A DNA stretch of 63,059 nt, counting the filler, from Collodictyon triciliatum (lineage: Eukaryota), in the NCBI GenBank assembly GCA_043381765.1. It is 9 parts of 9 records of this genome, joined end to end, with 100 filler letters (N's around TTAATTAATTAA, not from the genome) between each part and the next. Parts side by side here need not be neighbours in the genome. Positions count along the whole stretch, not along the records: positions 14,037 to 20,962 come from JBHJMP010004162.1; 8 more parts are not named here. One strand, 5' to 3'. Shown here one piece after another: positions 3,522 through 55,165 of the stretch. Within the stretch, counting starts at the first letter, position 1. Every line of letters begins with the position of its first letter. The notes below the pieces were generated by a model. It was not told the DNA's origin and searched no databases. It saw nothing but the letters and a program-made list of their open reading frames with translations. The translations under genes were made by a program, and so were the position numbers.

Positions 3522-5171
3522 ATGCAAGAGGACTTCTTTGACGCAAAGCTTTTTCTTAATCAAGAGTAAGTGGTTGTTTTCCTTTGCCATTCTTGAGCTC
3601 TTTTGGTCTCGACTCTTGTCAGGGACTGCCCTTAACACTCTCTCTCCCTCCTTCCCTCTGTCAGTAAATCGAAGCAAAAGTTGTAGAGAACTGTTGAGAA
3701 ACTGGGACTTCATAACCTGACCCGCCTTTGCTCTTATTCGCGCAGGTATTCTGTGCGTCGTTACGAATACAATGAATTCTCTGTAAGCATATCCTGCCTG
3801 GACTCATCCTCAAGTAAGTCTTGTGCCATTTCATATTCCTGCTGTACATGATGCTGCTTTTCTTCTGCCTTTTTACTTATGTTTATCTTTTTTCTTTCTT
3901 TCTTTCTTTCTTTAATTAGGATTTTTAGACATTATTGACCCAACCTCTGAACTTTCATCCGTTTTCTTGAATGTTTCTTGAATAATTACTGGTATATTAT
4001 TTTAGCCGACTTTGACCTCACCGGGCAGATTTTATGGCCTGCTGCTGATGTGCTGTCATATTACATATCCACACACCCAGAGACATTTATTGGGAAGCGA
4101 GTCTTAGAAGTTGGCGCAGGGGTCGGGCTCTGTGCTCTGATGATTGCTAAATATTGCGGGCCGGCCCATGTCATGCTTACCGACCACAATGATGTTGTCA
4201 TGGATATTATTCGCACGAACATGGAAATCAATGCTCCTTACAGTGAGATACATGCTGCACCCAGTTTTCTAAGCCCTGTTTTTTTATTATGCCATTTTTT
4301 CGCTTTTGAATATTTGTGATTGGTTCTTACATTAAAAATACCATCATTATGATTATTGCAGATTGCGATGTCTCTGAAATGACGCTGGATTGGAAGGAAT
4401 GTGAAATATCAACCCTTCAACCGAAATCATACGACCTCATCGTTGGCTCGGATATTTTGTTCGTCTATACATTAGTTGAATTTCGATATTTTGTATGTGT
4501 GACCAAATAATGAAGTGCTTTTATCCTTTATTCGATTCGAAGTCCAAATAATGAAGTGCTATTTAATCCGTGAATACATTCATATTCTCTTGCATGTACT
4601 CGTATCCTAAACTTTCATCGTTGGATAGATTTTGGCCCAATTCTGTGCAGCCCCTTGTTGAGACGGTCGATCGGTAAGTAGATGGGCGAGAAATATAACA
4701 TGTGGCATCTGATTAGTATCGTTTGATAAGCGAACCAAAAGAAGATAAAAGGCTGAAATGATACATACCTGATCTGATTTAGCCCAGATGCGTTGCTTTA
4801 CTCACCCATGCCCAAACAGCTTCTTGTCAGAGGACGCCAACGCTAGATTCATAGTCGCCTTCCGCCCGCGCAACATGCTCGTCCATAATCTTTTTCTTGA
4901 TGGAATATCATCCAAGGGATGGGCCATTCAGCAAGGTGAAAACTCTATATGTTCGGCATCCGCTATGTCCATTTTGAGGACAGCTTCGGTTTGTGGGAAA
5001 ATCTGCGAATGAAAGGTGTGGTACACCCAACGCAAACCCAAGCACCCAAGGGAAGCTAGTTGTCAAAATGTCTGACTATATTTTAATCTTTATTTCATAT
5101 CAGAAAACATCAGCAAGTGGATGCCTGAATTGCCCCGGGAGGAGGTCATACTCTACATAATCAAAAGATGA
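3522..5171 (+). CDS. Family-16 (METTL21/EEF1AKMT-like) SAM-dependent protein methyltransferase, multi-exon
   Basis: MQEDFFDAKLFLNQE|YSVRRY...TDFDLTGQILWPAA, motif I RVLEVGAGVGL, MLTDHND, LDW, YDLIVGSDIL; ends VILYIIKR* (TGA 5169-5171). Confidence 0.88.
4503..4560 (-). mobile_element. Tail-only (24 bp) antisense insertion of LINE family A with a perfect 17-bp TSD, in a methyltransferase intron
   Basis: CCAAATAATGAAGTGCT at 4503-4519 and 4544-4560 flanks the reverse complement of ACTTCGAATCGAATAAAGGATAAA. Confidence 0.85.
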
Positions 5172-12694: not shown

Positions 12695-13409
12695 AAGGCA
12701 CCGAAAACGGTTCTCATATATCGATACATTCTCATTGTCTGAGCCGTTCTCTTTGAAGCAACTGAGCTGAAATAAAGGCTATTTACCAGAAAGACCCTTG
12801 AGTTGAATGTGTGATTCTTGTATATATTGAAAGCGAAGTCATAAAAATCGTACGAGAGTATGATGTGAATGCCGTAATATCCTCATAACTACCCTGTCTG
12901 CCATATAGCTCTTCTAAGGAGTGCATTTGGTTATTTATGATGCTTATCATGCAGGCAGGCCCAATTATTCTCTTTTCCTACACCCCTGGAAGATTTGCGG
13001 TACACTTTGCTTCTGGTGCGTATAAAACTTAGCAGCTTTTTCGATTGAATAAGATGGAATTCATGGCGTTTCTGTTGGAAAATATATCGTGTCCCACACA
13101 TTATCCTTCGAGTAATAAAATAAAGTATATCAGGAGTACTATTTTGGACATACTACATCAAGGCAAACCCCCTTCTCGATATGGTTGCTATCATACCCAT
13201 TTTTTCCCTAAAAGCCTCAGATACATTTTCTCTAATCTCGCAAACTTCCAGGCAGCAAATCTCTTCATGACCTCATAGGAGATTCACATATTTTTGACTA
13301 CATGTGCAGCACAAAAACTCATGTCTACTAGAGTTTCACAGAGTAATTTTTGATTTTTCCCAACAGTTTATTAAGGTAATACAAATTCGAGGAATTTTCA
13401 TTCTCTTAT

Positions 13410-13936
13410 GGGACAATAATGAGCTGTGGACGAGACAGTAGAAACCCCAGATTGTGTGGCTGGAGGTTTTGTGTTTTGGGTGGAAGGAAAGAAAAATCGA
13501 CTAACAAGATAGAAAGGAGAGAAAATGTTCTCACACGTAGACTAATCTACCCAAAGTGGTTCAGCTCCAACGCGATTTCTGGTTGTGTTCGAGACTGGCA
13601 GAAGAGCGGATAAACTTGTCGGGTCGGTGAAAGTGCACATGACAGTTACTTCTCGAGTCGATTCCGACGAGTCCTTTTAACCGTTTATCTCAGACAAGAT
13701 TTACATCCTATTTCATTCCACAGGACGAGTCTTTTGGGGGGACAACGGGTCACTTTCCTTACGTTTCTTGCTGAGTGACTCCGATAGAAAGCGATATATC
13801 GTTGTTCGTCTGGTATTATCGAAAGTGACGCTTGATCGTCCCCTGGCATCGGGACCATGCGTAGCCGGCAGTGGACTTTGCTTAACCGGAGTATGGATAC
13901 GCGTTTGTGGTTTTAGAAACATACGCTCCTGCTTGC
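13410..13936 (-). mobile_element. Interspersed repeat family C, 3' part (copy 1)
   Basis: High nucleotide similarity to 28808-29340 in opposite orientation; carries the ORF end ...NTRRTTIYRFLSESLSKKRKESDPLSPQKTRPVE*. Confidence 0.8.
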
Positions 13937-14243
13937 NNNNNNNNNNNNNNNNNNNNNNNNNNNNNNNNNNNNNNNNNNNNTTAATTAATTAANNNNNNNN
14001 NNNNNNNNNNNNNNNNNNNNNNNNNNNNNNNNNNNNTTCTTTGTTTTCTTTGTTTTCTTTGTTTTCTTTGTTTTCTTTGTTTTCTTTGTTTTCTTTGTTT
14101 TCTTTGTTTTCTTTGTTTTCTTTGTTTTCTTTGTTCTCTAGTACGATATTTTCTTTCCATTTTGCATCATCCAGAAACAAAATGCGGAATGCGGAATGCG
14201 GAATTAAAAAAAAAAAGACTCACTCGACCTCACAAAACAACAG

Positions 14244-15480
14244 GCGCACAGAGAACTCTTCGATGAAATTATCGAAAAGGAGCCAAACATCGGGCATGTT
14301 CTCCGACAAATAAAGCACGAATATGATATATCCGGGGTTCAAATTCAGGATGGAGGTCTACAGTCGATGTACGAGGAACTTGTGCAATCTCACGCATTGT
14401 TGAAACAAGAATACGAAAAGCTATCCATGGACAACAGTCACGAGCACATATACTCTCGTAAACTGGAGGAAGAAAATGAGGAATTGCTAGCACTTCTTTG
14501 TATTATTTCTTATTGTTTTATTGCTGAGCGCCGAGTTAATTGTGTATACGTTTCTTTTGCTGATGAACTAAGCAACATTGACATCTCCATAACTATTTAA
14601 GATATATTGCGCGCCTTTACAACTTTCTTTATAGGAATGTCAACATTCTCATGTTAACAACACTTCGCCTACCTGCTTAGCTTCGAAGGAGAAGGAAATT
14701 CAACAGTTGAAAGAAAATCTATCATCAACTGACCCGATGTGGCAACATCAGCTAATGCTTCAAGCCAGAATTGATGACTTGGAGGTTCCTATCAATATAA
14801 TTCTTTATCTTTCTGTTGTCGTGTCTTGTTTTGATCTGGTTTGGTTTTCACTCTGTATTTTATACACCTGAATACTTGACCTTCTTTTTCTCTGTGGCGC
14901 AATAAATATTTGTCCGGCATTTAGCCGATGGATTCAAATATTTACCAAGGAAATGAATCTACTTTTAATTTCGTGCCCAATAGCAACGAGAGATTCCATA
15001 TGATTTAAAAGAGAGCCCAGCAGCAACAATGCCAACTTTCAAACGTAACCCAAATATGTAAACTGTATCTCCGCCCGCGCAAACATTAAGTATTATTTTT
15101 AAATATATGCTTTCGCCCAATTATCCTTCCCTCATATAGCTGGAACGACTTATTCCAACCCGAAATCTCTATGGGCTGAGAATCAAGAGCTTGGTCGCAA
15201 GATTATGGAAGTGTCCAATGCAGTAGACCAGGTTATAATCGCTAAAACATCATCATCATCACTAATGATAATCGAATATTTTAATGCATGCAAAAGCTGG
15301 CAGTCTACACCAAGACTATTGATAGTTGATTTGGATTCAAAGAAGTACGTCATATTGAAATCACATATGTGTCTTTTTCCTGTGCCTTAGGTCAAGCGCA
15401 AGGAAAGAGAGTCATACCAGCTGCTTTCGAACGTCTCAGGGGATATCACGTCGATGGTGACGAATAGCAAGCGTGTATAA
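14244..15480 (+). CDS. Coiled-coil protein with a TSNAXIP1_N-like motif, 5' partial, multi-exon
   Basis: ELFDEIIEKEPNIGHVLRQIKHEYD resembles the TSNAXIP1/C6orf118 N-terminal motif. Spliced coiled-coil exons end MVTNSKRV* (TAA 15478-15480). Confidence 0.55.
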
Positions 15481-17086: not shown

Positions 17087-17236
17087 TCTGACCAACTTGC
17101 TATCATTAATTTCTTTCTAGTGCTAGCCCTTCCATGGCAGGGTCTTCTCGCGTTTGCTCCGTTCCATAGATACCTATCTCGCCCCTTGTATGGCATAACC
17201 TCCCAGCACTTTGAATCGAATAAAGGTTAAAAAAAT
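17087..17236 (+). mobile_element. 5'-truncated LINE family A 3' end
   Basis: Degenerate DQLAIINFF coding end, the 3' UTR TCGCGTTTGCTC...GTATGGCATAACCTC and the terminus CACTTTGAATCGAATAAAGG, matching 53518-53725. Confidence 0.85.
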
Positions 17237-17466
17237 ATTTTTTTTCCCTTTTAATTTGTGCAAGATTATAAATGTTTTGGCTTTGGTTCTCTAGCCATCA
17301 TTTGCATTGACGCTACTTGGTGGCCGGGTGGCGGAGAAGTAGTCGGTAATCAGGAATTGTATCCTGCAGTTTGGCCTGTAGTCTGGGTCTTGTGCTTGCA
17401 TGAGAGATACAAGGCGAAGTTGAATCTCTTTCTCGGCTTCCTTCCACATGTCTCTTCTCACAGAGT
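17237..17466 (-). mobile_element. 5'-truncated LINE family B 3' end (copy 1)
   Basis: The reverse strand encodes RRDMWKEAEKEIQLRLVSLMQAQDPDYRPNCRIQFLITDYFSATRPP, similar to the family A ORF2 C-terminus. Tail TCTTGCACAAATTAAAAGGG-A(n). Homologous to 43470-43568 and 54941-55165. Confidence 0.75.
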
Positions 17467-17886
17467 TAATCAGTTGAACCTATAAACTTTAAGGAATCGG
17501 TAACTAATAGGTATTTATTTCTTCATTATTTTTTGCATTTTTAATCGATAAAGAAAACTTAGGGTGTGTATTGCTTGCCGCAGAAGAAAATCAGAGCGTT
17601 GATTTAATCCTTTGAATCATAGGACACCGCAGATTTTGAGGCTAGATGATTTCCAATTCCATCAATAAGCATATGAAAAGGGCATACCTGGATTGGACGA
17701 AAGACAAGAAAAGTCATTAAGGAGAATATCCCAAAATATTTCAACAAAAGCTCGCTGACATGCAGTCATGATTGGAGACTATTTAGAATTTTGGAGGTAA
17801 TTTAAGAAATTATATATTACAGGTATTGTCTTCATGTAAACTGTTTCCTAAAATAGACGATGATAGTAATATATATACCCATAATT

Positions 17887-21199: not shown

Positions 21200-23090
21200 C
21201 ATCAGCAGAGGCTCGCTGAAATCCATCTACTTTTGAATTGTATAGCGAACGAGCCGAAAGGGATGCTGTTGGACCAACAGCACGAGCGCACCGACCAGCA
21301 ACAGCAACCTCGTATTCTCCTCAGTCAGGGGCGAAGAAACTTGGAAGCCTTCGCGGCTCTCCTTTGACCAAATCACCGAGTTCCAAAGATATCACTCCCC
21401 GATCACTCACGGGTAGACGGATCGACTCCAGGAACGAGCCTCTTCATCAGGTCGTGGACAAGGACCAGGCCTATAGTTCAAAAAGTCTGGCGACGCGGGC
21501 ATTCAGAAAAATCGAAGGATCTATTAACGTTGTATGTGTGTAAAACAATCCATCTCATAAGCCTTTTTCGAGTGAAGAGGATAACACCTCAGCGTATTTT
21601 GCTTGAATTGAACAGAAATGCGTATAATTATGTTATATCGTCTGTTTGCAGAGTGACATGATGTTGTTTATTATCAGTTTATTCTTTTATATGTTTTCAG
21701 ATATGTAACCACTTTGAAGAGGTTGATAAAAAAGTAGAAAAAGGGTGCCTTGTTTACTCTAATTTCCTTCTTGCTCTGCAAGATCGTGAACTGGGAGTGG
21801 TATATCAGAAGAATAATATTATTCATTACAACTCATGTATATAATATACTTATACATTACTTACATAATACATCATCTGAAATATTAATATTTGCATTAT
21901 TATATGGAATTATACAGCTAGGCGATTATAGAAGGCGCCTCACAAAAAACATCCAATCAAATGAAAATCGAATCCCCAGTATACGCGTATTGTTGAAAGC
22001 ACTGCAATTTATTCGCTTCCGTATGAGCCAATCGGCGGAAGCACCAACATCTGCAAAGGATGCACTTTTAAAATATGTCCCTTTACATACAATATCACAA
22101 GTTATTCGTTTCACTACTATCCCAAAGAGCAGTTTCTACGATCCAAGGCAGATTCATATACCAAATATCAATTTCTTTCTTCCCGACAAAATAACTTATT
22201 CGAAGGACATGACCAATCGCCATGACTCGGTATCCCGGGAGTTCACCCCGATTGAGTTTGATTACAATTCGGTATCAAAGCCCAGGAAGTCTTATGGCCT
22301 ATGCGCTTATCGCACGAATGACTTGGATATGCCTTCTGGTTTCTCAATCAATCCGATGACAGGCCATGTTTACGTCTCTGACACAAAAAATCATCGTATA
22401 AGGGTGCTTTCTGCTGATTTGCAGTATATCGCCACGTTCGGAGATAAAGGCGCTCCGGGAGACAGAGTGCAGAGTCCTATGGAACTAACCATCTCTCCCA
22501 ATGGAGAGCGTGTGGCAGTAAAGACAATGTCCCATATATTAGTTTTATACAATCGTCGTGGCCAACTTATCCGAAGGATAGATGGGAGGTCGCTGCCTCC
22601 AGCATATGTGTTTTCCTGTATTAAACATATCGCATTCGATAGTCACAATCATCTGTACGTTTTCGGATGCTATGACATGAACGTCCGAATGTTTTCGGTG
22701 GATGGGGAGTATATGGATTCATTCCCCATCCCTGTTGAAAAACAAGGTGATGTAGTTGAAGGGGTCATTATCGACGGCTATGACAATATAATTTATGGGC
22801 TGAACCCAAGTCGAAAAATTATTGTCTGTACAATCAGAGGTGAGAAAATTAAATCCATTCCGCACAAAATAAAGGGGTTCGTGTCTCAAATAACCAGAGG
22901 ACCGCGGAATGGATATTTGGTTGCATCGAGACTCACTTTTGGCCAATCCATAGACTCTGTTTACTTCTGCAACTCTAAATTCCAAATACTCAAGGAACTT
23001 ACACTCATGAATGGGCGCTATGTTGCAATATCGCCAGGTGGCCGGTTTTACGTGCTCAAGCCAACAAATAATTGCATCGAGATGTACTGA
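21200..23090 (+). CDS. NHL-repeat six-bladed beta-propeller protein; 5' exon structure uncertain
   Basis: Long terminal exon with LDMPSGFSINPMTGHVYVSDTKNHRIRVL...FGDKG, IAFDSHNHLYV and VAISPGGRFYV...NNCIEMY*. Confidence 0.85.
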
Positions 23091-26588: not shown

Positions 26589-27840
26589 TCACTCGGCCAT
26601 CGCTGTTTGTCCCTTGGACACGCTTTCCTGGAAGTAGAGTTGGAGCTGGAGGCGGCGGGCGGTTTTGCGGGTGGGTCAGTGAAGAGAGGTTGCGAGTATT
26701 GTTAGGTTTCGTAGGAAAAGAAAAAAGGCATTATTAGGATGTACATAAGTGTGTATGTGCATGTGGATGTGGAGGATGCCGCCGCGATTTTTTAGGTCGT
26801 ACAGTGAATATTTTGAGGTTGGAATCCCAGTCAGTGTAGAACTTCCCCTCCGAGGTGTCGATCTTGCGCTTGGGGATTTTGAAGCCGACTGTTTCATACG
26901 GATCCGCAGCGAACACAACGTATCTGATTATTATTATTATTCAGAGAATGCACGCCATTATTTTATGATCGTAAATATATTATGTTACTATTAAAGCTTA
27001 TTTTCTTTTCTCTTTTCTATTTACTATTTTGCTTGGCCTAGGAGTCATATGTGGACTTGAATATAAATGACGCTAACTGAGTAGATCTCGGTAGACAAGA
27101 GAGAGAGGTAGAGTTCAAGGAATCCAAATCACGTCCTTACTGATAGTTTGGATCGGGAGCCTCCACTTTCTGCTCGTATGCATTCACAATACGATGACGC
27201 GGCTGGATTCCGTGGGAGATTTCGGGATACTCGATGCGGAATAACAGGCAGTTTTGCTTGGACTCGGGGTCATATTGCTTGATCACTCGGTAACCTGGCT
27301 TCCCGATTCTCTCAGCCGCGTTCTTTTTCAACGGATTTTTGCTTCGGCTGATGCTAGAACATCGACATTTGTTTTGTTTTGTATTATTTTGTATGGATAA
27401 AGCGATTATATTCTTTTGATTGGTACCAAGCGATGGATAATCATAGTGGTAATCGCACATAGCGCCGTAGTCTTTTTTTTGTTTTGTTTTGTTTGCATTT
27501 TAGAATATATATATTTGAATTGATCAACAAAACATACGGAGCGGGCTGGATGGGATTTGCTTGTGCGTCCTTGGCAGCTGGGTTGACATTAAAAAAAAAT
27601 CAGTCCCTCTAAAGACATGAAAATGTTGCTGTTCTATTTATTTTTAGGACACATGTATGAGGAATACTTGGCTTTATTCGTGAATTATTGTTGTATTTAT
27701 GTATAAAGACCTCTTCTCGCAAGGTTTGTTTGGTGTCTTTTTCCTTGCGTGTGAGCCAAGTAGTTTCCTTCGTTATTATGCAATGTCAAGCAGAGGCGGC
27801 ATTCGTACGTGCCCAAGTGGTTTCGCATAAAGTAAGGGTC
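26589..27840 (-). CDS. SF3A2: Splicing factor 3A subunit 2 (SF3a66/PRP11), 5' partial
   Basis: PYFMRNHLGTYECRLCLTLHNNEGNYLAHTQGKRHQTNLARR; RIGKPGYRVIKQYDP; PRHRIVNAYEQKVE; FAADPYETVGFKIP; ends LQLYFQESVSKGQTAMAE*. Confidence 0.95.
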
Positions 27841-28084: not shown

Positions 28085-29410
28085 TCTACCAACTACCGCT
28101 GGACGTGTGGCCGCAACTCCTTCGTGAGGAGCTGAAGCCGTTCAGACCGACCCACGTGGAGATCAAAAAGGACAAAGGCTTCTTCACAGACACGGCCGTG
28201 GTGAAGCTTCTCTGTCACAAAAACCAGCTCCCTGCAAAGTTTACGGTCATGGGTAAGAAGTGTCCAAAGCGCATCCTCAAAGAGCGTCCGCCAGTTGCGA
28301 ATAACGAACGACAAGTAAAAGCCCCGCAAAAGATTACACCCGCCAGGCAGACAAGCAGCAACGGGGTCAAGGAAGCCAAGGCCAGGCAACAACGGAGTCC
28401 GCAAGACTCACAGCAGATACGCGCATGCAGCGACAAGGACAATGACATGGAAGGAAATCTCGGTTCCTCTTCAGAATCCTCGCACTCGAGCCCCTTCTCC
28501 ATAGCCAACACCGGACAAGCCCGTACATCGCGAGACCCAATAGCAGCGCATCTCCAAACCCCGAAAGAAATACCCACTTAAACTACCCATTCAGACTGAC
28601 GTGAATATTGTTAACATAGGAGGCCTCAAGGCAGTCTTCGTTACTTATCCGAAAGGATACTCCAAAGCGAAGCAACACAAGAACCAGCGCCCACCAAAGA
28701 TAGGCCGTTTCCCCTGCCCCAGCCCGTCTCATCGAGAACCAAGGAGCAAGAGCAAACACCACAAGTCGAATCCAAGCTTGGAACTTCACACACCAAAGAC
28801 AGCCCGAGCAAGCAGGAACGAATGTTTTTAAAACCACAAACGCGTATCCATAATCCAGTTAAGCAAAGTCCACTGCCGCTACACATGGTTCCGAAACCAG
28901 GGGACGGTCAAGCGCCACTTCCGATAATACCAGACAAACAACGATGCATCGCTTTTTGTCTGAGTCGCCCAGCAAGAAACGCAAGGAAAGTGACCCGTTG
29001 TCCCCTCAAAAGACTCATCCAGTGGAATGAAATAGGATGTAAACAAGTCTGGGATAGACGGTTGAAAGGACTCGTCAGAATCGATTTGAGAAGTAACTGC
29101 CATGTGCGTACTATCATCGACCCGACAACTTTATCTGCTTTTCTGTCAGTCTCGAATACAACCAGAAATCGCGTTGAAGCTGATTCACCTTGGGTAGAAT
29201 AGTTTGCGTGTGAGAACATTTTCTCTCCTTTCTATTTTCTTTTTCTCTTTCCTTTTCTTTCTTTCCACCCAAAACACAAAACCTCCAACCACACAATCCG
29301 GGGTTTTCCACTGTCTTGTCCACAGCTCATTTCTTGTCCTAGAGGCGAAGGCGGTTTCCTCGGCTTTGTTTTCTCTCAATAAACTGTTGAAAAGAAACCA
29401 AAAAAAATAA
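28085..29410 (+). mobile_element. Interspersed repeat family C (copy 2): degenerate ORF1-like protein plus 3' region, 5' end in the gap
   Basis: GC-rich, intronless, frameshifted ORF (YQLPLDVWPQLLREELKPF...FTDTAVVKL..., then S/P/K-rich) ending QTTMHRFLSESPSKKRK...PVE*. The 3' part is repeated at 13410-13936 and 34190-34330. Confidence 0.65.
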
Positions 29411-38200: not shown

Positions 38201-40041
38201 TGGTTTGTATTGCATTCTTAATCCAAATTATCCCCTATTAAAGACCTTTAAGCAAATGCTCGAAGCAATTCTTCAAACTACTTTTTCTTGTTTTTTTATC
38301 TTGCTGAATAGGAATAATATTTTATTACCTCGAAAATCTAATGTTTCTTTTACAATACATAGAGAAAGAAGTATCTAGAAAAGTAGTGTACATCGACAAA
38401 GTGTTGCTCCCTCAAAAACTAACGATGAGGGATAAGAATCAAATATACTACAAGCTTGCATTCGAGTCATTATCTCTCAAAGGAGTTTGCAGACAATACG
38501 GACAAATGCCAACCGAGCATATTGCTCAAGAAAAAAGGCATGGATCCACTTTGGATACGGAAACAAAAACGGAAAAAGATAGTAATTTCTACGCCAGAAA
38601 TGTTCCAAACGTAAACATAGAGCAAGACAACTTATTATACAACGTATGGATGTTTGGTGACATCAAGGTGCTCATCAGATGCAAAGTTCATGGTGGAATC
38701 CGAGACCCAAACACTGCAAAGGTATTTCCACAATTGATATGATAGGACATTATTTGCTTCCTCCTTCTTTTCGTCTTTTCTTCTTTTCTTCCTCATTTAT
38801 CGACAAATAAGGCATTATATCTTATTATTGCTTTCTTTGAAGTCACCTGTTTGAAATCATAGGGAATTCGATACGTGGGAATACAAACGAAACTAGAGTA
38901 TCTTAAAAACTATGGATGGGAAGAGGATACAGTGAGCGAGCTGGCCCGTTGGTGGATATACTCTTTTATTCGGCCAGATGCCCACCTATACATAGGTCAT
39001 TACCAAATATGCGTTAATCTGCCGATTTATTTTTATGCTGGGAAGCGCACACAAATATAACCAACCATTTTTTGAAATTTTAATTCAATCTTGCCCCCAT
39101 TTGAGTAACTATAAATAAATAGGCCGTATTGATCCAGCATCATCAACACTACTTTCTGTCGAGAGGAGAGGAATGACAGACATAATATACCAACAAGGAC
39201 CATTTCAGTAATTCTTTTTTCTATTATTCTATTTGAATCTATTTTATTTTGTGTAAGGCCGTTTTTGGAAGGAAAATTATATTTACACCCACCATTATGG
39301 CGACGCTTCTTGGCACACTTGCAAGTATTAATTGAAGTATTTGTTAACCCTCAAAATAGACCGCCTCAATTCATGAAGCAGATTTTGGTCATATTCCAAA
39401 AGCTACGAGAGCTTCCAACAGGCTCATATGTCTTACAACACGAGGGAAATGCCGATTGCCTAAAAATAATTAAAAGTGTTGATGACGAACCCATCACACC
39501 GGAGGATAGAAAACCAATAATCGATCTTCATCAAACCATACAATCAAGCGGCGTTACAGACCGGGTGAATATGCCTTACATTCCTGTCAAGTGGGTACCA
39601 ACGAGCGACCAAATTCCGTACACGTTTCCACACGCCCCATCAGCAACTGCCGAAAATATTTGCTACATATTTGCGATGCACGGAAATTGCTCGAAAGGAA
39701 AATTGGTATGTTTACATATTAAATTGAATACACATGCCCGAGAATACGCGAGTGAGAACATCTGGCGATAACAGGCAATCTGTTTTATAGAAAAAAATGA
39801 ATCAGATTTAATCCGTCTTCTTTATATGTATAATTACCTTTCAAAGCCATTCCTTTTCTTTTTATAGTGTAAATATGTGCACGAGAAACTCCCCAGGCAC
39901 CTATGGGAGTCGTATGGAATACTACCGCACAAATCCATGAATACAAATTGGAAAAAGACAAAAAAGGCTCAAAAGAAGAAGAAAAAGAAACAAGTCGCTG
40001 CGCCTGCAGCCAATCTAGCCCAGAAAAAAACCACCCAATAA
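35240..40041 (+). CDS. Little elongation complex subunit ICE2/NARG2-like protein with a C-terminal CCCH zinc finger, multi-exon, probably 5' partial
   Basis: NARG2_C-like motifs DIVISSSALRALID, VYIDKVL, YNVWMFGDIKVLIRC, TKLEYLKNYGWEEDTVSELARWWIYSFIRP, IG|RID and LPTGSYVLQH. CCCH finger ICYIFAMHGNCSKGKL|CKYVH. TAA at 40039-40041. Confidence 0.75.
37559..37610 (+). mobile_element. Tail-only (22 bp) insertion of LINE family A with a 15-bp TSD (1 mismatch), in an ICE2-like intron
   Basis: AATATCATTTTGATT and AATATCGTTTTGATT flank TTTGAATCGAATACTGGAAAAA. Confidence 0.75.
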
Positions 40042-40602: not shown

Positions 40603-41901
40603 AGAGCCTATTTATGTCTCCATGGGTCTTAAAGGGAGGCTTTGAAGGGTGAGTTTATTGAGATAGTCTTTTCTGGTTGTTTTGGTCGGTTCAAATTGTA
40701 TCTTTCGGGTTTGATGGCATTAAAGTATGCATGGAGGGTAAAAAAATAATAGTATTTTTTTTTTTTTTTTTTGCTACGTATACTTTAAACGAGAAATAAG
40801 GAAAAAACGAAAGAATGGTGATGAGTTAAAAGACACATAAACAAGTTCGACCACCTCATTTAGGATTTGACGGTGACATCACCATAGTGGCTTTCCTTGA
40901 TATTTCACGTAGATTTGCCATGTGTGATAGACGCCCTATTAGAAGTGCCTCTTCGTTTTGCGGCTGTTGCCAGCGTGATGCCACATCTACCGGAAGCTCG
41001 CGCGCTCGGTTCGTACAAGAGCAGTTTGCGCCACTTTTGAGGAGAATGGTTAAAATATTATAGTTTTCGTCAGATGAAGCAGCAACGTGAAGCGGCGAAT
41101 CCCCAGTTATACCATCCATTTGGTTGATATTAGCTCCATTGAGGAAAAGTGCGTAGAAGCAGTCAAAAGATTTTGATTTGATTGCGGAGTGTAAAAAGGG
41201 CGTGTCTCCGACATTATGGTCTATATTAACACCAGATGCAAGTGCTTTGAATATGCGATCTATGTTGCCTTCCTCACAGGCAGATTTCATATACTAGTAT
41301 CGCATGTATGTTGATTTGAGCTGAGGAGGTTTCCAAAGACACATAACGAAACAACTTGAATATGAGTAAAAGATCAGATTCATGACTTACAGCTGCAGGA
41401 TTTTCGCACTTAGATACGAAAGCCTTGTTTGCATACTTTTCTTTAATATATACTTCTCTTCCCATGCTTTTACATATCATACCAGGAAATGAAGGTAATT
41501 TTAATATGTGTTGATGAAATTAAGGAGGAAAATGCTTCTATAAATTTATCGATGATGCTATTTATAAGAATTATAAGTAAAAACGCATATGAAACACACC
41601 TGGCAAAAGCATCTTCAGGCGATAGCTCAGCCCAAATCTTGTTTGATTTTTCATTACCGATTTTCTTTAAGAACTAATCGCCAAAAAAGAATTAGTGGAT
41701 ATATTATTGATACGCTGTTTATGCTATCTTCTAAAAAGAAAGACAAAGTTGCCTCAATTGTAAAATCATCCATCTTATCCAGTTTCAGAGACCGAACCTT
41801 TTTTTTTTTTTTTTTTGAAATCATTCAAAAAAAAAGGAAAAATTAGCTATCAATAAAATCATCATACTTTGTTGTCAAAAGTATGTATTCATAAAATTGA
41901 T
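40166..41901 (-). CDS. ArfGAP-domain plus ankyrin-repeat protein (ACAP/ASAP/AGAP-like), 5' partial
   Basis: K|VRSLKLD, FLKKIGNEKSNKIW and REVYIKEKYANKAF form the ArfGAP C-terminal half, followed by ankyrin repeats GDTPFLHSA, GANINQMDGITGDSPLHVAA and LLKSGA. Confidence 0.8.
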
Positions 41902-42015: not shown

Positions 42016-42115
42016 NNNNNNNNNNNNNNNNNNNNNNNNNNNNNNNNNNNNNNNNNNNNTTAATTAATTAANNNNNNNNNNNNNNNNNNNNNNNNNNNNN
42101 NNNNNNNNNNNNNNN

Positions 42116-42837
42116 GCGTTTCTCCTCCTAGACCAAGAGAAAGCCTACGACCGAGTGGAGCACGAAGTAATGATTAAGGTACTCAAAGCGAGAGGAGCTC
42201 CGGATAACATCATCAACCTTATCCAAAAATCATACGAGGACGCCCCACTTCGAGTTATTGTCAACCACGGTTTCACCAAACCTTTAGTTAGGACTCGAGG
42301 TGTGTTCCAAGGGTGTCCGTGTGCCCCAATAATATACAACTTCATAGCTGATATACTGGCGAAGGCAGTTAAAACAACAACCAGAGGAATGCATCTCAAT
42401 CCCACAACGCACATCCAAATAGCTCAATACGCAGACGACACTATGATTTTCCTGGAAGACCAAGAGGACGCACAAAGAGCGATTGAAGCAGTGTCACGTT
42501 TCAACAAAGCTACCGGAAGTCGAACAAACTTTGCCAAATCCAAAGGTGTTGTCTTCTCGAAGGACAATATAGATGCCTTCCCACCTATGGTTCCATGGCA
42601 ACCATCAAACGAACCCATTAAGTACCTTGGCATCCACTTTTGTACTGACCCTCACAAAATAAAGGTCAACTGGGACAATCTCAGTCTAAGCGTTGTCAGG
42701 ACTATCAATGTCTGGAAAAAACATGGCCTGTCAGCAGCTGGAAAAAAAGTTGTCTGGAACACCTTTATTCTTCCCAAGGCTTTGTATTCAGTGACTGGGG
42801 CGGAAGTCCCTGAAGGATGGATTCAAAGCATAGACCT
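42116..42837 (+). mobile_element. L1/Tx1-clade non-LTR retrotransposon ORF2, reverse transcriptase fragment (open frame, bounded by gaps)
   Basis: LLLDQEKAYDRVEH, RGVFQGCPCAP, QYADDT, TGSRTNFAKS, IKYLGI, LSAAGK. Confidence 0.95.
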
Positions 42838-43469
42838 NNNNNNNNNNNNNNNNNNNNNNNNNNNNNNNNNNNNNNNNNNNNNNNNNNNNNNNNNNNNNNN
42901 NNNNNNNNNNNNNNNNNNNNNNNNNNNNNNNNNNNNNNNNNNNNNNNNNNNNNNNNNNNNNNNNNNNNNNNNNNNNNNNNNNNNNNNNNNNNNNNNNNNN
43001 NNNNNNNNNNNNNNNNNNNNNNNNNNNNNNNNNNNNNNNNNNNNNNNNNNNNNNNNNNNNNNNNNNNNNNNNNNNNNNNNNNNNNNNNNNNNNNNNNNNN
43101 NNNNNNNNNNNNNNNNNNNNNNNNNNNNNNNNNNNNNNNNNNNNNNNNNNNNNNNNNNNNNNNNNNNNNNNNNNNNNNNNNNNNNNNNNNNNNNNNNNNN
43201 NNNNNNNNNNNNNNNNNNNNNNNNNNNNNNNNNNNNNNNNNNNNNNNNNNNNNNNNNNNNNNNNNNNNNNNNNNNNNNNNNNNNNNNNNNNNNNNNNNNN
43301 NNNNNNNNNNNNNNNNNNNNNNNNNNNNNNNNNNNNNNNNNNNNNNNNNNNNNNNNNNNNNNNNNNNNNNNNNNNNNNNNNNNNNNNNNNNNNNNNNNNN
43401 NNNNNNNNNNNNNNNNNNNNNNNNNNNNNNNNNNNNNNNNNNNNNNNNNNNNNNNNNNNNNNNNNNNNN

Positions 43470-43568
43470 GTTTACATGAACGCTACTTGTTGGCCGGGTG
43501 GCGGAGAAGTAGTCGGTAATCAGGAATTGCATCCTGCGGTTTGGCCTGAAGCCTGGGTCTTATGTGCC
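43470..43568 (-). mobile_element. LINE family B 3' fragment (copy 2)
   Basis: Encodes RMQFLITDYFSATRPTSSVHVN; nearly identical to 17305-17400. Confidence 0.8.
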
Positions 43569-44334: not shown

Positions 44335-45530
44335 TGAAACGAAAATATTGTGACACTTATAATCAACAACCCTGCCCTCGGTCTCACACTCGCTTTCCCA
44401 TGATATGGAAGCGCAGCAAATCTCTTTAAGTTTGAGTCCTTTCAGCACCCTGTTCACCAATGCGTTTCCACACTATCCAATACCGGGCTCATGATCGTGC
44501 ACGTATCTTATATCCCGTTGGGACCCAACCGGAACGGCGTTTCCAAAGCATACAGTAAGTCATTCATGTCAATCGAGCTCAAGAGGAGAAAGTTCAGAGG
44601 GATATGCCTGAACGATGAACTCATCACCTTTCGCCTGAAGAACCAAAGGCGGTCCATTACACCTGACTCTCCGCAATTCTCTATGGCCATGGCGTACTCC
44701 AAGCTGTTTCGATACAAAATCATCAGTCCGAATCCCTACAAACCGGAGAAAATGAGTCGTTGGGCCGAAACTATTGACATTATAGACCCGCCGATAGTCA
44801 AAAGCTGGAAGCAAGCCCGTATATCTCAGCTACTCCCGAAACACCGCGCTCTACTGCTCAATAATATCTCCAACAGAGAGCTGTGGATAGGTGTGCGTGT
44901 ATTCCATGCAGCAACGACCTCTCCAGAATGCACCATGTACCATAGTGGAGATGACTCTATCGAACACATATTTGTGAAGTGCTCTCTTGCTCAAAAAGTG
45001 ATAGAATCTACCCATAAGATGCTCTCTGAGCTTGATTATGCTCCCAACCGACTCAGCGCGTCCGACATCCTGTTTGGCCCACAATACCGAATGACCCACG
45101 ACTCTAGAATACTCTGGACAGTCATAAGGGGACATATGTTGTAGTCCCTATGGAGTGTACGTGCATTCTCTCGCTCTAAGATTACCCGAACGAGAAATCA
45201 ATGTATCGAGGCTGAAAAGCCTCGTGCAATACAGCTTCCTGAACAGCCTGCTGAAACACGCTCGCATTCTTCACTACTCTGACCGCAAGCGATGAGAGAT
45301 GTGGGAATGTGTCGTGCGATATCTCCCACAGCATATCCAACCGCTGCTACCCACGCAGCCAATCAACCAGTTGGGCCGCCCGCCTGACCAGCTCGCTATC
45401 ACTGATTTCTTTCCGGTGCTACCCTCTCCACGGTAGTGTCTTTTACTAATCGCGTTTGCTCTCTCCCGTGCGTCCCCATCCCGCCCATTTGTATGACATA
45501 ACCTCGCTGCACTTTCAATCGAATGAAGAG
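44335..45530 (+). mobile_element. LINE family A ORF2 C-terminal region and 3' UTR, degenerate copy
   Basis: zf-RVT-type region (C..Y...DSIEHIFVKC) with internal stops and a frameshift; ends QLAITDFF, then the 3' UTR and CACTTTCAATCGAATGAAG terminus. Close homolog of 52800-53725. Confidence 0.9.
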
Positions 45531-46088
45531 ATATGACATTTTGGGTGAGTGCGAATGGCTGCCCGACGGTCACACGTAATTGATTTGGTGCGGGAAATAC
45601 CTCCTCGTCCACAAAACATGCTGTTCTCTGGCAAGATAGGCTTCGTCAAAATAGGGTACAATAATTCAAGATTTAAGATTCCATGTCCATCCAGGTCTTT
45701 TGGGATTTCAGATTTCTTCTGGACACAGCATTTCTTGTTCGTCACATCTCGCCACATCTTCATGAATGTGGTTATGCTTCTGGGAGTGCATGGAAGAAAA
45801 AAAATTTATCTGTCATAACCCCGCCGACCCGCCCTATTGTGATGTCGTGGTATTATCGCGTGGGTATTGCGTTCGCTGACACTTGCAAACATCTAACGAG
45901 ATGAGAGGATTTTTAAAAGGGTCAACCACGCACGTTTTCCAGCAGAATGATTTTTTATATCTTCCCTGGCATTTCAGGAGAAATCATCTTTCTGATTTCA
46001 AGCCCCACATTCTCTCCATCATTCGTTTCCTCCAAAACGACGATTCCAACCAGTGACTTTACCCCACGGTTGGGGCGGGTGACTAACC

Positions 46089-52550: not shown

Positions 52551-52799
52551 GTTAAAGGTGCGAGGGAGAAAAAAAGTGCAAAGGAAAACAGAAGGCGTTC
52601 GGTTGAGAGGGGATGTGGCAAACTAAAAAAAGAAAGCAAGAGAGTGAAACAAAATATCATAAAACTAAAGAAAAGTGGCGTGGGTGTGGGAAATGCCTGA
52701 TCGGTAAGCGAAGCCCTTTGTCCATTCGTGATATGCAGGTTTATCTAACCTTCATTTTTCAACTATTCATTATTATTATTATTTTTTAGCCACACACGC

Positions 52800-53725
52800 G
52801 ACTCCTCGTAATTCTCGATGGCCATGGCTTATTACAAGCTCTTTCGATATAAAATCATCAGTCTGAATCCCTACAAACCGGAGAAAATGAGTCGTTGGGC
52901 CGAAACCATAGGCATTATAGACCCGCCGATAGTCAAAAGCTGGAAGCAAGCCCGATTATCTCAGTTACTCCCGAAACACCGCGCCCTACTTCTCAATATC
53001 TCCAACAGAGAGCTGTGGGTAGGTGCGCGTCTGGTTCATGCAGCAACGACCTCTCCAGAATGTAACATGTGCCATAGTGGAGATGACTCTACCGAACACA
53101 CATTTGTGAAGTGCTCCCTTGCTCAAAAAGTGACAGAGTCTACCCACAAGATGCTCTCTGAGCTTGATTATGCTCCAAACCGACTCAGCGCGTCAGACAT
53201 CCTGTTTGGCCCACAATACCAAATGGCCCACGACTCTAGAATACTCTGGGCAGTCACAAGGGGACATATGCTGTGGGCCTTATGGAGTGTGCGCGCATTC
53301 TCTCGCTCTAATGATTCACCCGAACGAGAAATCAGTGTATCCAGGCTTGAGAGCCTCGTGCAATACAGCTTCCTGAACAGCTTGCTGAAACGCGCCTGTG
53401 TTCTTCGCTACTCTGACCGCAAGCGAAGAGAGATGTGGGAATATGTCGTGCGATATCTCCCACAGCATATCCAACCCCTGCTGCCCACACAATCAATCAA
53501 CCAGTTGGGTCGCCCACCTGACCAACTCGCTATCACTGATTTCTTTCCAGTGCTGTCCTCTTCGCACTAGTGTCTTCTACTCGCGTTTGCTCTCTACCAT
53601 GCGCTCCCATCCCGCCCCTTTGTATGGCATAACCTCGCTGCACTTATAATTTTTTTTTTTTATTCTTCCTTTCAATTTTGTGCGGGATGCCGCTGCACTT
53701 TGAATTGAATAAAGGGAAAAAAAAA
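52800..53725 (+). mobile_element. 5'-truncated LINE family A copy with an intact ORF2 C-terminus (zf-RVT), 3' UTR and A-tail
   Basis: ORF 52818-53570: CNMCHSGDDSTEHTFVKC (CCHC), LWALWSVR, ending QLAITDFFPVLSSSH*. Terminus TTGAATTGAATAAAGGG-A9. Confidence 0.92.
53636..53700 (-). mobile_element. LINE family B tail nested antisense in the LINE A 3' UTR, with a 10-bp TSD
   Basis: CGCTGCACTT at 53636-53645 and 53691-53700 flanks the reverse complement of GCATCCCGCACAAAATTGAAAGGAAGAAT-A(n). Confidence 0.85.
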
Positions 53726-53727
53726 GT

Positions 53728-54930
53728 TTCGGTTTATACGGTTGTCAGCTTCATCGATTCGGATATCGAGACTTATGTAGCAGCCTGGAATAATCTCTCT
53801 GAAGCGAGGATTGAGCTTGGCTATCCATTTCTTGCATAAAAACGCTACACCTGCATGTCTGTTGATTATCGTCACAGGACCTCATTTGTGGACGTTTTCA
53901 TGTTTCATTGTTGGTTAGATTGTCAGGGCTGAGCCATGTTTCTTGGAGGCAGATGATATCTGCGTGAGAGAAAAGAGCAGTGTTTAGGGCCTCTTTTCTT
54001 TTTTGGGGGTCGTTAATCCCCTAACGTTCCACGACAGAACGTTAAAACGCATGAATAATCTATTGGCTTTTGGAGGCCATAGCCTCCGGTGATTGGCCCT
54101 CTCCGCTGGAGCTGGGTTGCTCAGGGTGGGATGGTTTACTCGATTTGTCCTTCATTTGGCCGGTGTTATAATTGCTCGCGGTTCGGCCAGGATATATCGG
54201 ATGGTCTTGGGCTTTTGGCTACAGCCCCTTTGTAGCTGGTGTGTTGGCAGATGCACTCTATCGGTCACTAGCAACCCTCGGTTCCAATTTTCTATCTCAT
54301 CCACACGGTAGGCAGGGCCAACCATGTTTCCGCTTTCATTCTGGCTTGCTTTCTGGCTCGCTATATTCGGTGGTGTACTTGACTGATTCACACTCTTCTC
54401 ATTAGGCGATGCTTTATCTTCGACGGTTTCGCTCTTTTTTGGTGCGCCAGGGATTGCAGGATGAGTAGCCGGTGTTTTATATTCGTCTACGTTTCTTTTT
54501 CTTGGATAGGAAGGTGTTTGTCGCTGGGAGGCGCAAGAGTTTCGACAGCAGGTCTGTTTTCATAAACAGTACTTGAGGAGTAATTTGTCGTTCCCGAAGC
54601 TTCAAGGTGCTCGCTTTCTTCTTCAGCAGAACCTTCTATGACGACGACAGGTTGGATGGACTGTTGTTCTTCCAATCCCGAGTCTGGGACGTTGCTTCTT
54701 ATGGATTGCGCAGTACTTGCTGAAGAAAGAGTCTCTTGAGTGGTTCCAGGAGCCATGACCTCTAAGGAGGTAGGCGGGTGTGGTTTGCTGGGTGCCATTA
54801 TGCTGTTTCCCGATTCTGTTACCGAGTTGGGTTGGGGTTCCCTTTCCTCGGCATCCTCTCTATGATTTAAAGGAGAGCTTGGTGAGATATCACCGGCTTG
54901 GGGTGGTTTCCTTCTCCACCTGCGCGTTCT
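53728..54930 (-). mobile_element. Degenerate LINE 5' segment: ORF1 C-terminal low-complexity region and ORF2 APE endonuclease N-terminus
   Basis: ATG at 54052: MRFNVLSWNVRG(frameshift)INDPQKRKEAL...DIICLQETWL, then HAGVAFLCKK...IIPGCYISLDI. These are apurinic endonuclease motifs. A S/P/T/E-rich broken ORF lies upstream. Confidence 0.85.
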
Positions 54931-54940
54931 CTACTCCTCA

Positions 54941-55165
54941 GACCCTGTGAGAAGAGACATGTAGAAGGAGGCTGAGAAAGATATTAAACCTCGCGTTGTA
55001 TCTCTCATGCAAGCACAAGACCCAGGCCACAGACCAAAGCCGCAGATGCAATTTCTGATTACTGGCTACTTCTCTGCCACCCAGCCAACGAGTAGCGTCC
55101 ACACGAAACAAGGCAGGCACCTTGGAGATAGGAACTCCATCTCCACACGCAAAAAAAAATAAAAT
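54941..55165 (+). mobile_element. LINE family B 3' fragment (copy 3)
   Basis: DPVRRDM*KEAEKDIKPRVVSLMQAQDPGHRPKPQMQFLITGYFSATQPTSSV followed by an A-rich tract. Confidence 0.8.

What the first reader, a model, noticed from the sequence alone, without database searches (positions are those of the whole stretch)
17324..17359. Diverged family B keeps the terminal PIP box and matches a full CRL4-Cdt2 PIP-degron consensus
Seen: the minus strand encodes QFLITDYF-SATR; the identical motif is at 43494-43529 and an eroded QFLITGYF is near 55050. Families A and B differ strongly in DNA and share little beyond RR[DE]MW and Q-x-x-ITD-[FY]F, which suggests selection on the motif. Established: a PIP degron is a PIP box with TD plus K/R at +4 after the last aromatic; Arg is at +4 here but not in family A. 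Inference: family B protein may be destroyed on chromatin-bound PCNA, a self-limiting or cell-cycle-gated retrotransposon. B's status as an ORF2 C-terminus is itself inferred, since no B RT is visible.
Basis: partly seen in the sequence, partly recalled or inferred. Interest (0 to 1): 0.75.

Follow-up and report, generated by a model that had tools for sequence, protein, structure and literature searches.

The report
PCNA-binding motif on LINE retrotransposon tails
Three short, decayed 3' ends of an L1-like retrotransposon encode the tail of its ORF2 protein, which keeps a strong PCNA-binding (PIP) motif; the match to a "destroy-me-on-PCNA" degron rests on one arginine that chance alone can explain.

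Summary
Minus strand 17359-17324 reads QFLITDYFSATR, the same 12 residues lie at 43529-43494, and an eroded copy (QFLITGYFSATQ) lies at 55049-55084. A PIP box with TD occurs 4 times in the six-frame translation, against 0.01 expected, always in LINE tails.

"Family B" is three 5'-truncated 3' ends (about 95 to 265 bp or more) of an L1-clade LINE. Database fragments carry the B frame 46 residues upstream, into helices that align with the ORF2 C-terminal domain of family A and of full-length EN+RT+zf-RVT proteins. That supports the ORF2 C-terminus reading, but no B reverse transcriptase was seen.

Between A and B the 28-residue linker is saturated (2 of 28 identical). The Q, I, T, D and F of the PIP box are kept, four of them through synonymous codon changes, so the constraint acts on the protein.

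The degron reading is weak:
- Arg at +4 is in 3 of 5 B copies and is absent from three of the four related lineages.
- Lys/Arg frequency is 12%.
- B+3 is not basic.
- No binding or degradation test could be run.

Most likely this is a PCNA-recruiting tail, a relocated analogue of the human L1 ORF2p PIP box.

The parts
17238..17470 (-). B1: a 5'-truncated family B LINE 3' end of about 235 bp. It holds an ORF remnant, a 3' UTR of about 42 nt and an A8 tail.
   Evidence: Self-blastn matches 17309-17466 to 55099-54942 at 86%. The alignment is and the sequence. Homology to B3 and P0008 stops near 17470.
17294..17479 (-). B1 stop-to-stop frame of 62 aa. It runs from the RRDMW helix through a linker and the PIP box to a 14-residue tail.
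   Evidence: Translation. No Pfam family matches it. It is 73% identical to P0010 and 79% to P0008.
17324..17359 (-). The finding itself: QFLITDYFSATR, a canonical PIP box with TD and Arg at +4 (CGG at 17326-17324).
17444..17458 (-). RRDMW, the start of the last helix of the ORF2 C-terminal domain. Family A has RREMW at the same place.
   Evidence: In the family A model the helix spans residues 203-223.
43470..43564 (-). B2: a shorter 5'-truncated family B copy reading DPGFRPNRRMQFLITDYFSATRPTSSVHVN. Its 3' side is lost in the N gap at 42838-43469.
43494..43529 (-). Second intact copy of the degron-pattern match, QFLITDYFSATR.
54902..55165 (+). B3: a longer, decayed family B copy. It has an in-frame stop in RRDM*, D>G in the PIP box and R>Q at +4, and an A-rich tail begins near 55151. 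It may extend upstream to about 54699 on a weak match (E 1.7).
55049..55084 (+). Eroded motif QFLITGYFSATQ.
52794..53725 (+). Family A copy: an open 252-aa ORF2 C-terminus (52812-53567) with zf-RVT and a CX2CX8HX4C motif. Its PIP box QLAITDFF lies at 53523-53546. The 3' UTR ends in AAAGGG(A)9.
   Evidence: Pfam zf-RVT, E 8.7e-8.. The AF2 model has mean pLDDT 76 with the tail 227-252 below 50. The top Foldseek matches are human L1 ORF2p.
44650..45514 (+). Family A2 copy, with a frameshift and an in-frame stop. Its PIP box QLAITDFF lies at 45389-45412.
   Evidence: P0007 is identical to its tail.
42116..42835 (+). Reverse-transcriptase fragment (RVT_1). It is probably the upstream part of the A2 element, separated from it by the N gap and by B2.
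   Evidence: 46% identity to P0013 residues 589-828, E 6e-70. Pfam RVT_1, E 3.6e-25.
17088..17237 (+). A3: a short, eroded family-A-like 3' end (DQLAIINFF) lying tail-to-tail with B1.

Best explanation
Family B is a diverged family of L1-clade LINE retrotransposons. In this window it is present only as three 5'-truncated, decayed 3' ends.

The frame in question encodes the last helix and the tail of the ORF2 protein. The tail carries a canonical PIP box of the high-affinity TD type. Purifying selection has kept that box in at least three diverged lineages of this clade: A, B and the P0002 lineage. A TN variant is present in the P0005 lineage.

Most likely mechanism (inferred): the tail docks ORF2p onto PCNA at the insertion intermediate. 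This is the job done in human L1 by the internal PIP box between the endonuclease and RT domains, which is required for retrotransposition. On this reading the Arg at +4 is an incidental feature of family B, not a selected degron.

Shown:
- the motif, its copies and their LINE anatomy;
- homology of B to an ORF2 C-terminal domain;
- protein-level constraint on the PIP positions.

Inferred:
- PCNA binding;
- a role in retrotransposition;
- neutrality of the +4 Arg.
For: LINE anatomy:
- The three copies have different 5' ends (about 43564, 17470, and 54902 or further upstream) and share the same 3' region. They end in A-rich tails and carry stops and substitutions.

ORF2 homology:
- A profile search of 1.84 billion representative proteins gave 19 hits at E<=1e-3.
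- P0008 and P0010 are family B fragments. P0008 extends the frame upstream and aligns with family A 157-245 and with P0013.
- P0013, P0014 and P0019 (1226-1275 aa) carry Exo_endo_phos and RVT_1. P0013 and P0014 also match zf-RVT, below Pfam's cut-off.
- The best solved relative of P0013 is human L1 ORF2p, E 2e-60.
- Family A has the CX2CX8HX4C motif that PMC5381506 (passages) gives for non-mammalian L1. The top Foldseek matches of its model are human L1 ORF2p: TM about 0.5 and probability 1.00, but E about 0.05.

Constraint on the motif (A versus B):
- The linker is 2 of 28 identical.
- PIP positions 1, 4, 5, 6 and 8 are identical, and position 7 is F/Y.
- I, T, D and F are kept through synonymous changes (ATC/ATT, ACT/ACC, GAT/GAC, TTT/TTC).
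- Positions 2 and 3, which are free in the PIP consensus, differ.

Tails elsewhere:
- Six genuine hits cover the tail. Four have a canonical PIP box: P0002, P0007 and P0010 with TD, and P0005 with TN.
- P0008 has lost one aromatic residue.
- P0003 has N at position 4.

Accessibility:
- The family A model puts the PIP box in a low-confidence tail (residues 227-252, pLDDT below 50) that follows a confident helix.

Precedent:
- The PIP box of human L1 ORF2p binds PCNA and is required for retrotransposition (PMC10830420, PMC5371812, passages).
- TD confers high PCNA affinity (PMC3973308, passages).

+4 by chance:
- K+R frequency is 0.123, so P(at least 1 of 4 lineages has a basic residue at +4) is 0.41.
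Against: - No PCNA-binding evidence of any kind was obtained.
- No full-length family B element was seen, in the window or in the protein collections. The link to an RT rests on homology of about 95 residues.
- The full-length relatives P0013, P0014 and P0019 end soon after the RR..W helix with no C-terminal PIP box, so the tail is clade-specific and dispensable for L1-like elements in general.
- The AF2 model of the isolated 62-aa B1 fragment, built from only 5 sequences, predicts the PIP segment as a confident helix (residues 38-50, pLDDT about 91) beside the preceding helix, not as a disordered tail. This may be a fragment artefact, or it may mean the motif is partly buried.
- The +4 Arg is the parsimonious ancestral state of B (R, R, R, Q, L; Q and L are each one base from CGG). 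Lineage P0003 also has K at +4. That makes 2 of 5 lineages basic at +4, with a chance probability of about 0.12 (my own arithmetic from the frequency). Selection on +4 is therefore not excluded.
Confidence: 0.62

Rival explanations
1. The family B tail is a working CRL4-Cdt2 PIP degron, so ORF2p that docks on chromatin-bound PCNA is ubiquitylated and destroyed. That would limit or cell-cycle-gate retrotransposition.
For: - B1 and B2 match the published signature Q/N-x-x-psi-T-D-theta-theta-x-x-x-R/K exactly (signature from PMC3973308 and PMC8871960, passages).
- According to PMC3973308, TD is rare among PCNA partners and typical of CRL4-Cdt2 substrates.
- Arg is the likely ancestral +4 residue of B (3 of 5 copies).
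- B2, P0008 and the majority of B copies have two Arg residues just upstream of the Q.
- The family A tail is predicted to be disordered, as degrons usually are.
- The host is an animal by its gene content (Pfam TSNAXIP1_N, NARG2_C, SF3A2), and the pathway is described from fission yeast to metazoa (PMC3152358, abstract).
Against: - It rests on one residue with a 12% background frequency.
- The TD part is shared with families that lack B+4 (A, P0002), so TD is explained by PCNA affinity alone.
- B+3 is Thr, whereas PMC8871960 calls a basic B+3 important in human cells.
- Two of the 5 B copies lack the Arg.
- The isolated B1 model makes the segment helical.
- A degron would lower the element's own fitness unless it were offset by some benefit.
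- No paper in the library links ORF2p with Cdt2 (0 papers). The 4 papers that hold both 'PIP degron' and 'transposon' concern cell-cycle reporters.
Confidence: 0.15
2. The conserved stretch is kept at the RNA or DNA level, for example as a 3'-end recognition signal for the reverse transcriptase. On this reading the PIP-like peptide is a by-product.
For: The motif lies within about 120 nt of the 3' end. Families A and B also share a 3'-terminal TGCAC...AAAGGG(A)n element, so 3'-end signals do exist in this clade.
Against: Four of the five residues shared outside Q are encoded by different codons in A and B. The nucleotides vary while the amino acids are held, and blastn finds no A-B similarity here. 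The conserved positions are exactly those of the PIP consensus, and the free positions vary.
Confidence: 0.04
3. The copies are not retrotransposon tails. They are exons of a multicopy or domesticated host gene that encodes a PCNA-binding protein.
For: The B1 frame is open for 62 codons and begins just after an AG. Predicted small proteins with this sequence exist in public collections (P0008, P0010).
Against: - There is an in-frame stop in B3, and each copy is truncated at a different 5' point.
- The copies have A-rich tails, lie tail-to-tail with another LINE end, and differ by 10-14%.
- The upstream residues are homologous to the ORF2 C-terminal domain.
- The database 'proteins' come from contigs of 570-1523 bp and begin at the internal Met of RRDMW, as gene callers would produce from repeat debris.
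Confidence: 0.03

Closest known systems
Human LINE-1 ORF2p PIP box (residues 404-419, tower region between EN and RT)
   Same: It is an L1-clade ORF2 protein carrying a canonical PIP box. In human L1 the box binds PCNA and is required for retrotransposition (PMC10830420, PMC5371812, passages), and it is present in all vertebrate L1s examined (PMC5381506, passages). The closest full-length relative found here, P0013, has human ORF2p as its best solved match (E 2e-60).
   Different: Here the box sits in a C-terminal tail after the Cys-rich domain, not between EN and RT. It is of the TD type, and in family B it is followed by Arg at +4. Whether A and B also keep an internal box is unknown, because that region is absent from the window. 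P0013 has N-x-x-V-x-x-Y-Y at 406-413.
PIP boxes of pogo / Tigger / Lemi1 DNA transposases
   Same: These are transposable-element proteins with a PIP box. Pogo was found as a PCNA interactor in a two-hybrid screen (PMC5371812, passages). I recall, from no call, that the pogo box is C-terminal and of the ITDYF type.
   Different: They are DDE transposases of cut-and-paste elements, not reverse transcriptases, and share no homology with the ORF2 tail. The review says the functional relevance of the pogo box remains unclear.
CRL4-Cdt2 PIP-degron substrates (Cdt1, p21, Set8)
   Same: The signature is identical: canonical PIP box, TD, and a basic residue four positions downstream (PMC8871960, PMC3973308, passages).
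   Different: The match is a motif only. There is no basic B+3, no degradation data and no conservation of B+4 in sister lineages, and the carrier is a retrotransposon enzyme rather than a cell-cycle regulator.
Full-length L1-like ORF2 proteins P0013, P0014 and P0019 (1226-1275 aa) from public collections
   Same: They share the C-terminal domain. Their helices align with families A and B up to the RR..W helix, and P0013 has KRRNLW where A has RREMW. Their EN and RVT_1 domains are confirmed, and zf-RVT is matched below the cut-off in two of the three.
   Different: They end 10-20 residues after that helix and carry no PIP box at the C-terminus.

Membership tests
Canonical PIP box (PCNA-interacting peptide) | Sequence pattern Q-x-x-[ILMV]-x-x-[FY]-[FY] | tested here: met
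   B1, B2, B3, A and A2 all match. The loose pattern alone is common by chance (20 hits against 9.6 expected).
Canonical PIP box (PCNA-interacting peptide) | Physical binding to PCNA | not testable with these tools
PIP degron (CRL4-Cdt2 substrate) | TD at positions 5-6 of the PIP box | tested here: met
   TD is present in B1 and B2 (and in A, A2, P0002, P0010). B3 has TG.
PIP degron (CRL4-Cdt2 substrate) | Basic residue at +4 after the box | tested here: met
   R in B1, B2 and P0008; Q in B3; L in P0010. That is 3 of the 5 B copies that cover the site.
PIP degron (CRL4-Cdt2 substrate) | Basic residue at +3 (important in human cells, PMC8871960) | tested here: not met
   +3 is Thr in all 5 B copies.
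PIP degron (CRL4-Cdt2 substrate) | Motif exposed in an intrinsically disordered region | tested here: inconclusive
   The family A tail 227-252 has pLDDT below 50. The isolated B1 fragment model makes residues 38-50 a confident helix (5-sequence alignment).
PIP degron (CRL4-Cdt2 substrate) | PCNA- and Cdt2-dependent proteolysis in S phase or after DNA damage | not testable with these tools
   This needs an experiment.
PIP degron (CRL4-Cdt2 substrate) | Host encodes Cdt2/DTL, DDB1 and CUL4 | not tested
   The rest of the genome is not available. Among the window ORFs scanned against Pfam (30 of at least 100 aa; 128 of at least 45 aa around the LINE copies), none matched a cullin, DDB1 or Cdt2 family. 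Animal-type genes are present.
L1-clade LINE ORF2 protein | C-terminal domain homologous to that of ORF2 proteins that carry EN and RT | tested here: met
   For B: P0008 and B3 align with family A 157-245 and with the P0013 C-terminus. For A: Foldseek top hits are human ORF2p.
L1-clade LINE ORF2 protein | Cys-rich motif CX2CX8HX4C (zf-RVT) | tested here: inconclusive
   Met for A and A2. Not seen for B, because no B copy reaches that far upstream.
L1-clade LINE ORF2 protein | Reverse transcriptase and APE endonuclease in the same frame | tested here: inconclusive
   No B copy has either domain. An RVT_1 fragment lies upstream of A2 at 42116-42835.
L1-clade LINE ORF2 protein | Genomic signature of target-primed reverse transcription: variable 5' truncation and a 3' A-rich tail | tested here: met
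   Three different 5' ends, an A8 tail on B1 and an A-rich tail on B3. Target-site duplications of the B copies could not be resolved.
pogo/Tigger transposase | DDE transposase and CENP-B-type DNA-binding domains | tested here: not met
   No such Pfam domain was found near any copy. The upstream sequence is an ORF2 C-terminal domain.

The most novel reading that the evidence does not exclude
A lineage of L1-like retrotransposons moved or duplicated its PCNA handle to a C-terminal tail of the high-affinity TD type. In family B that tail became a true CRL4-Cdt2 degron. ORF2p would then be destroyed once it sits on chromatin-loaded PCNA, giving a built-in, replication-coupled limiter of retrotransposition, or a host-exploited off-switch.
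Probability: 0.12. Interest if true: 0.7.

Novelty: new variant of a known kind. Interest (0 to 1): 0.4.

Why it matters
PCNA binding through a PIP box is required for human L1 retrotransposition, but why is still debated.

A clade of L1-like elements keeps a TD-type PIP box in a C-terminal tail, under clear protein-level constraint, while the surrounding sequence is saturated with change. This suggests that PCNA recruitment is a general and movable requirement of L1-type insertion. It also offers short natural peptides for testing that requirement.

If the family B version were a real degron, it would be the first retrotransposon enzyme tied to replication-coupled proteolysis.

As it stands, the solid result is modest: a conserved PCNA-type motif on decayed LINE tails, and one suggestive arginine.

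Tried and rejected
- Word-indexed protein searches for longer relatives of A and B found nothing at the thresholds used.
- A profile search at near lengths added only P0020 and P0021, which are B fragments that stop before the motif.
- Of the 19 hits in the representative search, two look spurious: P0015, a repeat protein matched at TDFAYF, and P0018, a multi-CxxCH protein matched at the Cys motif. I ignored both.
- A PDB sequence search with the B1 peptide gave only noise (E above 6).
- Pfam on 128 short frames around the copies found no RT or EN next to any B copy.
- A relaxed tblastn of the relatives against the sequence upstream of B1, B2 and B3 found only one weak extension of B3, at 54699-54785 (E 1.7).
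- Target-site duplications for B1 could not be resolved by eye.
- Complex prediction produced no model, so there is no complex result in either direction.
- The cluster look-up for the database fragments could not be made. Their organisms and accessions are unknown, apart from P0007 being identical to the window's A2 tail.
- The only collection scan left open covers bacterial and archaeal genomes and was not used, because it cannot hold this animal repeat. Genomic copies of family B outside the window therefore stayed unchecked.
- The idea that B1 and B3 share one 5' boundary, and so form a fixed-length unit or exon, was considered and rejected. B3 continues at least 40 nt further upstream in frame with P0008.

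Full report
**Observation**

The minus strand at 17359-17324 reads QFLITDYFSATR, with the Arg codon CGG at 17326-17324. The 24-nt core recurs exactly at 43529-43506 on the minus strand. It recurs with 3 mismatches at 55049-55072 on the plus strand, and shuffles give no such match. The third copy reads QFLITGYFSATQ. Its CAG at 55082-55084 is one CpG transition from CGG.

A six-frame scan separates the loose pattern from the strict ones:
- The loose PIP pattern is common: 20 hits against 9.6 +/- 3.2 in 200 shuffles.
- PIP with TD occurs 4 times against 0.01 expected.
- The full degron pattern occurs twice against 0 expected.
- Every strict hit lies in a LINE tail.

The motif is not strictly terminal. 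In B1, 14 codons follow it before the stop. B2 runs into a 632-N gap, and B3 has lost the stop.

**What the copies are**

Self-blastn and alignment show three copies that share the same 3' region but start at different points:
- B2 starts at about 43564.
- B1 starts at about 17470.
- B3 starts at 54902 or further upstream.

B1 ends in a 3' UTR of about 42 nt plus A8, and B3 ends in an A-rich run. B3 carries an in-frame stop inside RRDM*. This is the usual picture of 5'-truncated, decaying LINE insertions.

B1 lies tail-to-tail with a short family-A-like 3' end at 17088-17237. No RT or endonuclease domain lies next to any B copy.

**Family A and the clade**

The 252-aa open frame at 52812-53567 has zf-RVT and the CX2CX8HX4C motif that PMC5381506 (passages) reports for non-mammalian L1. 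It ends QLAITDFFPVLSSSH.

A second copy, A2 (44650-45514), is frameshifted. An RVT_1 fragment at 42116-42835 lies upstream of it.

The AF2 model of A has mean pLDDT 76. Its best structural matches are human L1 ORF2p, with TM about 0.5 and probability 1.00 but E about 0.05.

**Is B an ORF2 C-terminus?**

Word-indexed searches for longer relatives found nothing. A profile built from the A and B tails and run over 1.84 billion representative proteins gave 19 hits at E<=1e-3.
- P0010 (52 aa) and P0008 (94 aa) are family B fragments.
- P0008 continues the frame 46 residues upstream of RRDMW. It aligns with family A residues 157-245 (36% identity, E 4e-10 against the window).
- In the multiple alignment P0008 also lines up with the last helices of P0013, P0014 and P0019.
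- Those three are 1226-1275-aa proteins with Exo_endo_phos and RVT_1. Two of them also give a weak zf-RVT match.
- The best solved relative of P0013 is human L1 ORF2p, E 2e-60.
- B3 in the window shows the same upstream residues: LLHLRVLYSSDPVRRDM, against LRHLHVLYYSDPVRRDMW in P0008.

The inference that B is an ORF2 C-terminus is therefore supported by homology over about 95 residues. No B copy with a Cys motif or RT was seen anywhere. The refuting condition of a non-contiguous frame remains formally untested.

**Selection on the motif**

A and B align without gaps for 48 codons, and 11 residues are conserved.
- The 28-residue linker is at random-level identity (2 of 28).
- In the PIP octet, Q, I, T, D and the last F are identical, and position 7 is F/Y.
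- The two positions that the consensus leaves free differ.
- I, T, D and F are each encoded by different synonymous codons in the two families.

This is protein-level constraint, and it argues against an RNA-level signal.

Six genuine database hits cover the tail:
- Four have a canonical box: P0002, P0007 and P0010 with TD, and P0005 with TN.
- P0008 has lost one aromatic residue.
- P0003 has Asn at position 4.

The full-length relatives P0013, P0014 and P0019 stop soon after the RR..W helix and have no C-terminal box. The tail is therefore a clade-specific addition.

**The degron claim**

Two papers give the signature as a canonical PIP box plus TD plus K/R at +4 (PMC8871960 and PMC3973308, passages read). 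The first adds that a basic +3 matters in human cells. The second says TD is rare and gives high PCNA affinity.

B1 and B2 meet the minimal signature. The limits on the claim are:
- +3 is Thr in all five B copies.
- +4 is R, R, Q, L, R across the five B copies. Arg is the parsimonious ancestor, since Q and L are each one base from CGG.
- The sister lineages have S/P (A), H (P0002), P (P0005) and K (P0003, whose box is degenerate).
- With K+R at 12.3% of residues, one basic +4 among four lineages has probability 0.41. Two among five has probability about 0.12 by my own arithmetic.

The data therefore neither require nor exclude selection on the Arg. TD itself is shared with families that lack B+4, so PCNA affinity is enough to explain it.

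Structural context is mixed. The family A tail (227-252) is low-confidence with a short helix at the box. The isolated 62-aa B1 fragment, modelled from only five sequences, gives a confident helix over the box.

No binding prediction could be obtained. The host genome could not be searched for Cdt2, DDB1 or CUL4. The window's genes look animal (Pfam TSNAXIP1_N, NARG2_C, SF3A2).

**Comparison with what is known**

- PIP boxes on transposable-element proteins are known: pogo, Tigger, Lemi1 and human L1 ORF2p (PMC5371812, passages).
- The L1 box lies between EN and RT at residues 404-419 and is needed for retrotransposition (PMC10830420, passages). It is found in all vertebrate L1s examined (PMC5381506, passages).
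- I found no paper in the library describing a C-terminal PIP box on a LINE ORF2 protein, or a link between ORF2p and Cdt2. The searches were made, and one search returned 0 papers. The library lacks most subscription journals, and I consulted no repeat database.

**Verdict**

The best reading (about 0.6) is a PCNA-recruiting tail of an L1-clade ORF2 protein, with the +4 Arg incidental. The degron reading stays open at about 0.15. I rate it a new variant of a known kind, of moderate interest.

Noticed in passing
window 53646-53691 (within the family A 3' UTR, 53571-53725): A 46-bp insert sits in the 3' UTR of the family A copy, flanked by a duplicated GCTGCACTT (53637-53645 and 53692-53700). 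Read on the minus strand it resembles the last 35 or so bases of the family B 3' end (GCACAAA..TT.AAAGG.A plus an A run). It looks like an extremely 5'-truncated LINE insertion with a 9-bp target-site duplication.
   Followed up: partly
window 17088-17470: A family-A-like tail (plus strand) and B1 (minus strand) lie tail-to-tail, with their A/T runs abutting at about 17227-17248. Together with the insert at 53646, this suggests that LINE 3' ends and their A-rich tails are preferred targets for new insertions. Families A and B also share a 3'-terminal TGCAC...AAAGGG(A)n element.
   Followed up: partly
window 53693-54052 (minus strand): This is the N-terminus of an L1-like endonuclease (MRFNVLSWNVRGL..., with stops), 29-30% identical to residues 1-114 of P0013 and P0019. 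It lies between the family A 3' end and B3. The minus-strand frames at 54155-54930 just upstream of it have no Pfam match and might be the 5' region or ORF1 of that element.
   Followed up: partly
window 42116-42835 (plus strand), N runs at 42016-42115 and 42838-43469: An RVT_1 fragment, 46% identical to P0013 residues 589-828, sits between masked runs and a 632-N gap, with B2 in the opposite orientation directly after the gap. Either B2 is nested in a long family A element, or the assembly gap hides the junction.
   Followed up: partly
window 13347-13936 and 28808-29404: An inverted pair of about 600 bp at 85% identity, unrelated to families A and B. It is an unclassified repeat.
   Followed up: no
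window 45958-46850: A GC-rich tandem repeat (GC 0.50, strong GC skew) reads on the minus strand as a proline-rich protein ([21 protein letters not shown] units), followed by a run of (LTHS)n. All six frames are open.
   Followed up: no
whole window: Pairs of 44-N runs recur about every 7,030 bases (6930, 13937, 20963, 27985, 35000, 42016, 49031, 56046). There is also one 30-N run at 6126 and the 632-N gap. The regular pairs look like masking, not assembly gaps.
   Followed up: no
window 3951-4316, 14208-14597, 21738-23087, 27140-27499, 39133-39768, 40859-41293, 51493-52060: These are host gene pieces by Pfam: Methyltransf_16, TSNAXIP1_N (below cut-off), NHL repeat, SF3A2, NARG2_C, ankyrin repeats and Mito_carr. 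They form an animal-type gene set interspersed with the LINE debris.
   Followed up: no
P0013 residues 406-413 (database protein, not the window): The closest full-length relative has N-x-x-V-x-x-Y-Y at almost the same residue numbers as the PIP helix of human ORF2p (404-419). P0014 and P0019 have no such match. This may show that the internal box is variable in this wider group.
   Followed up: no
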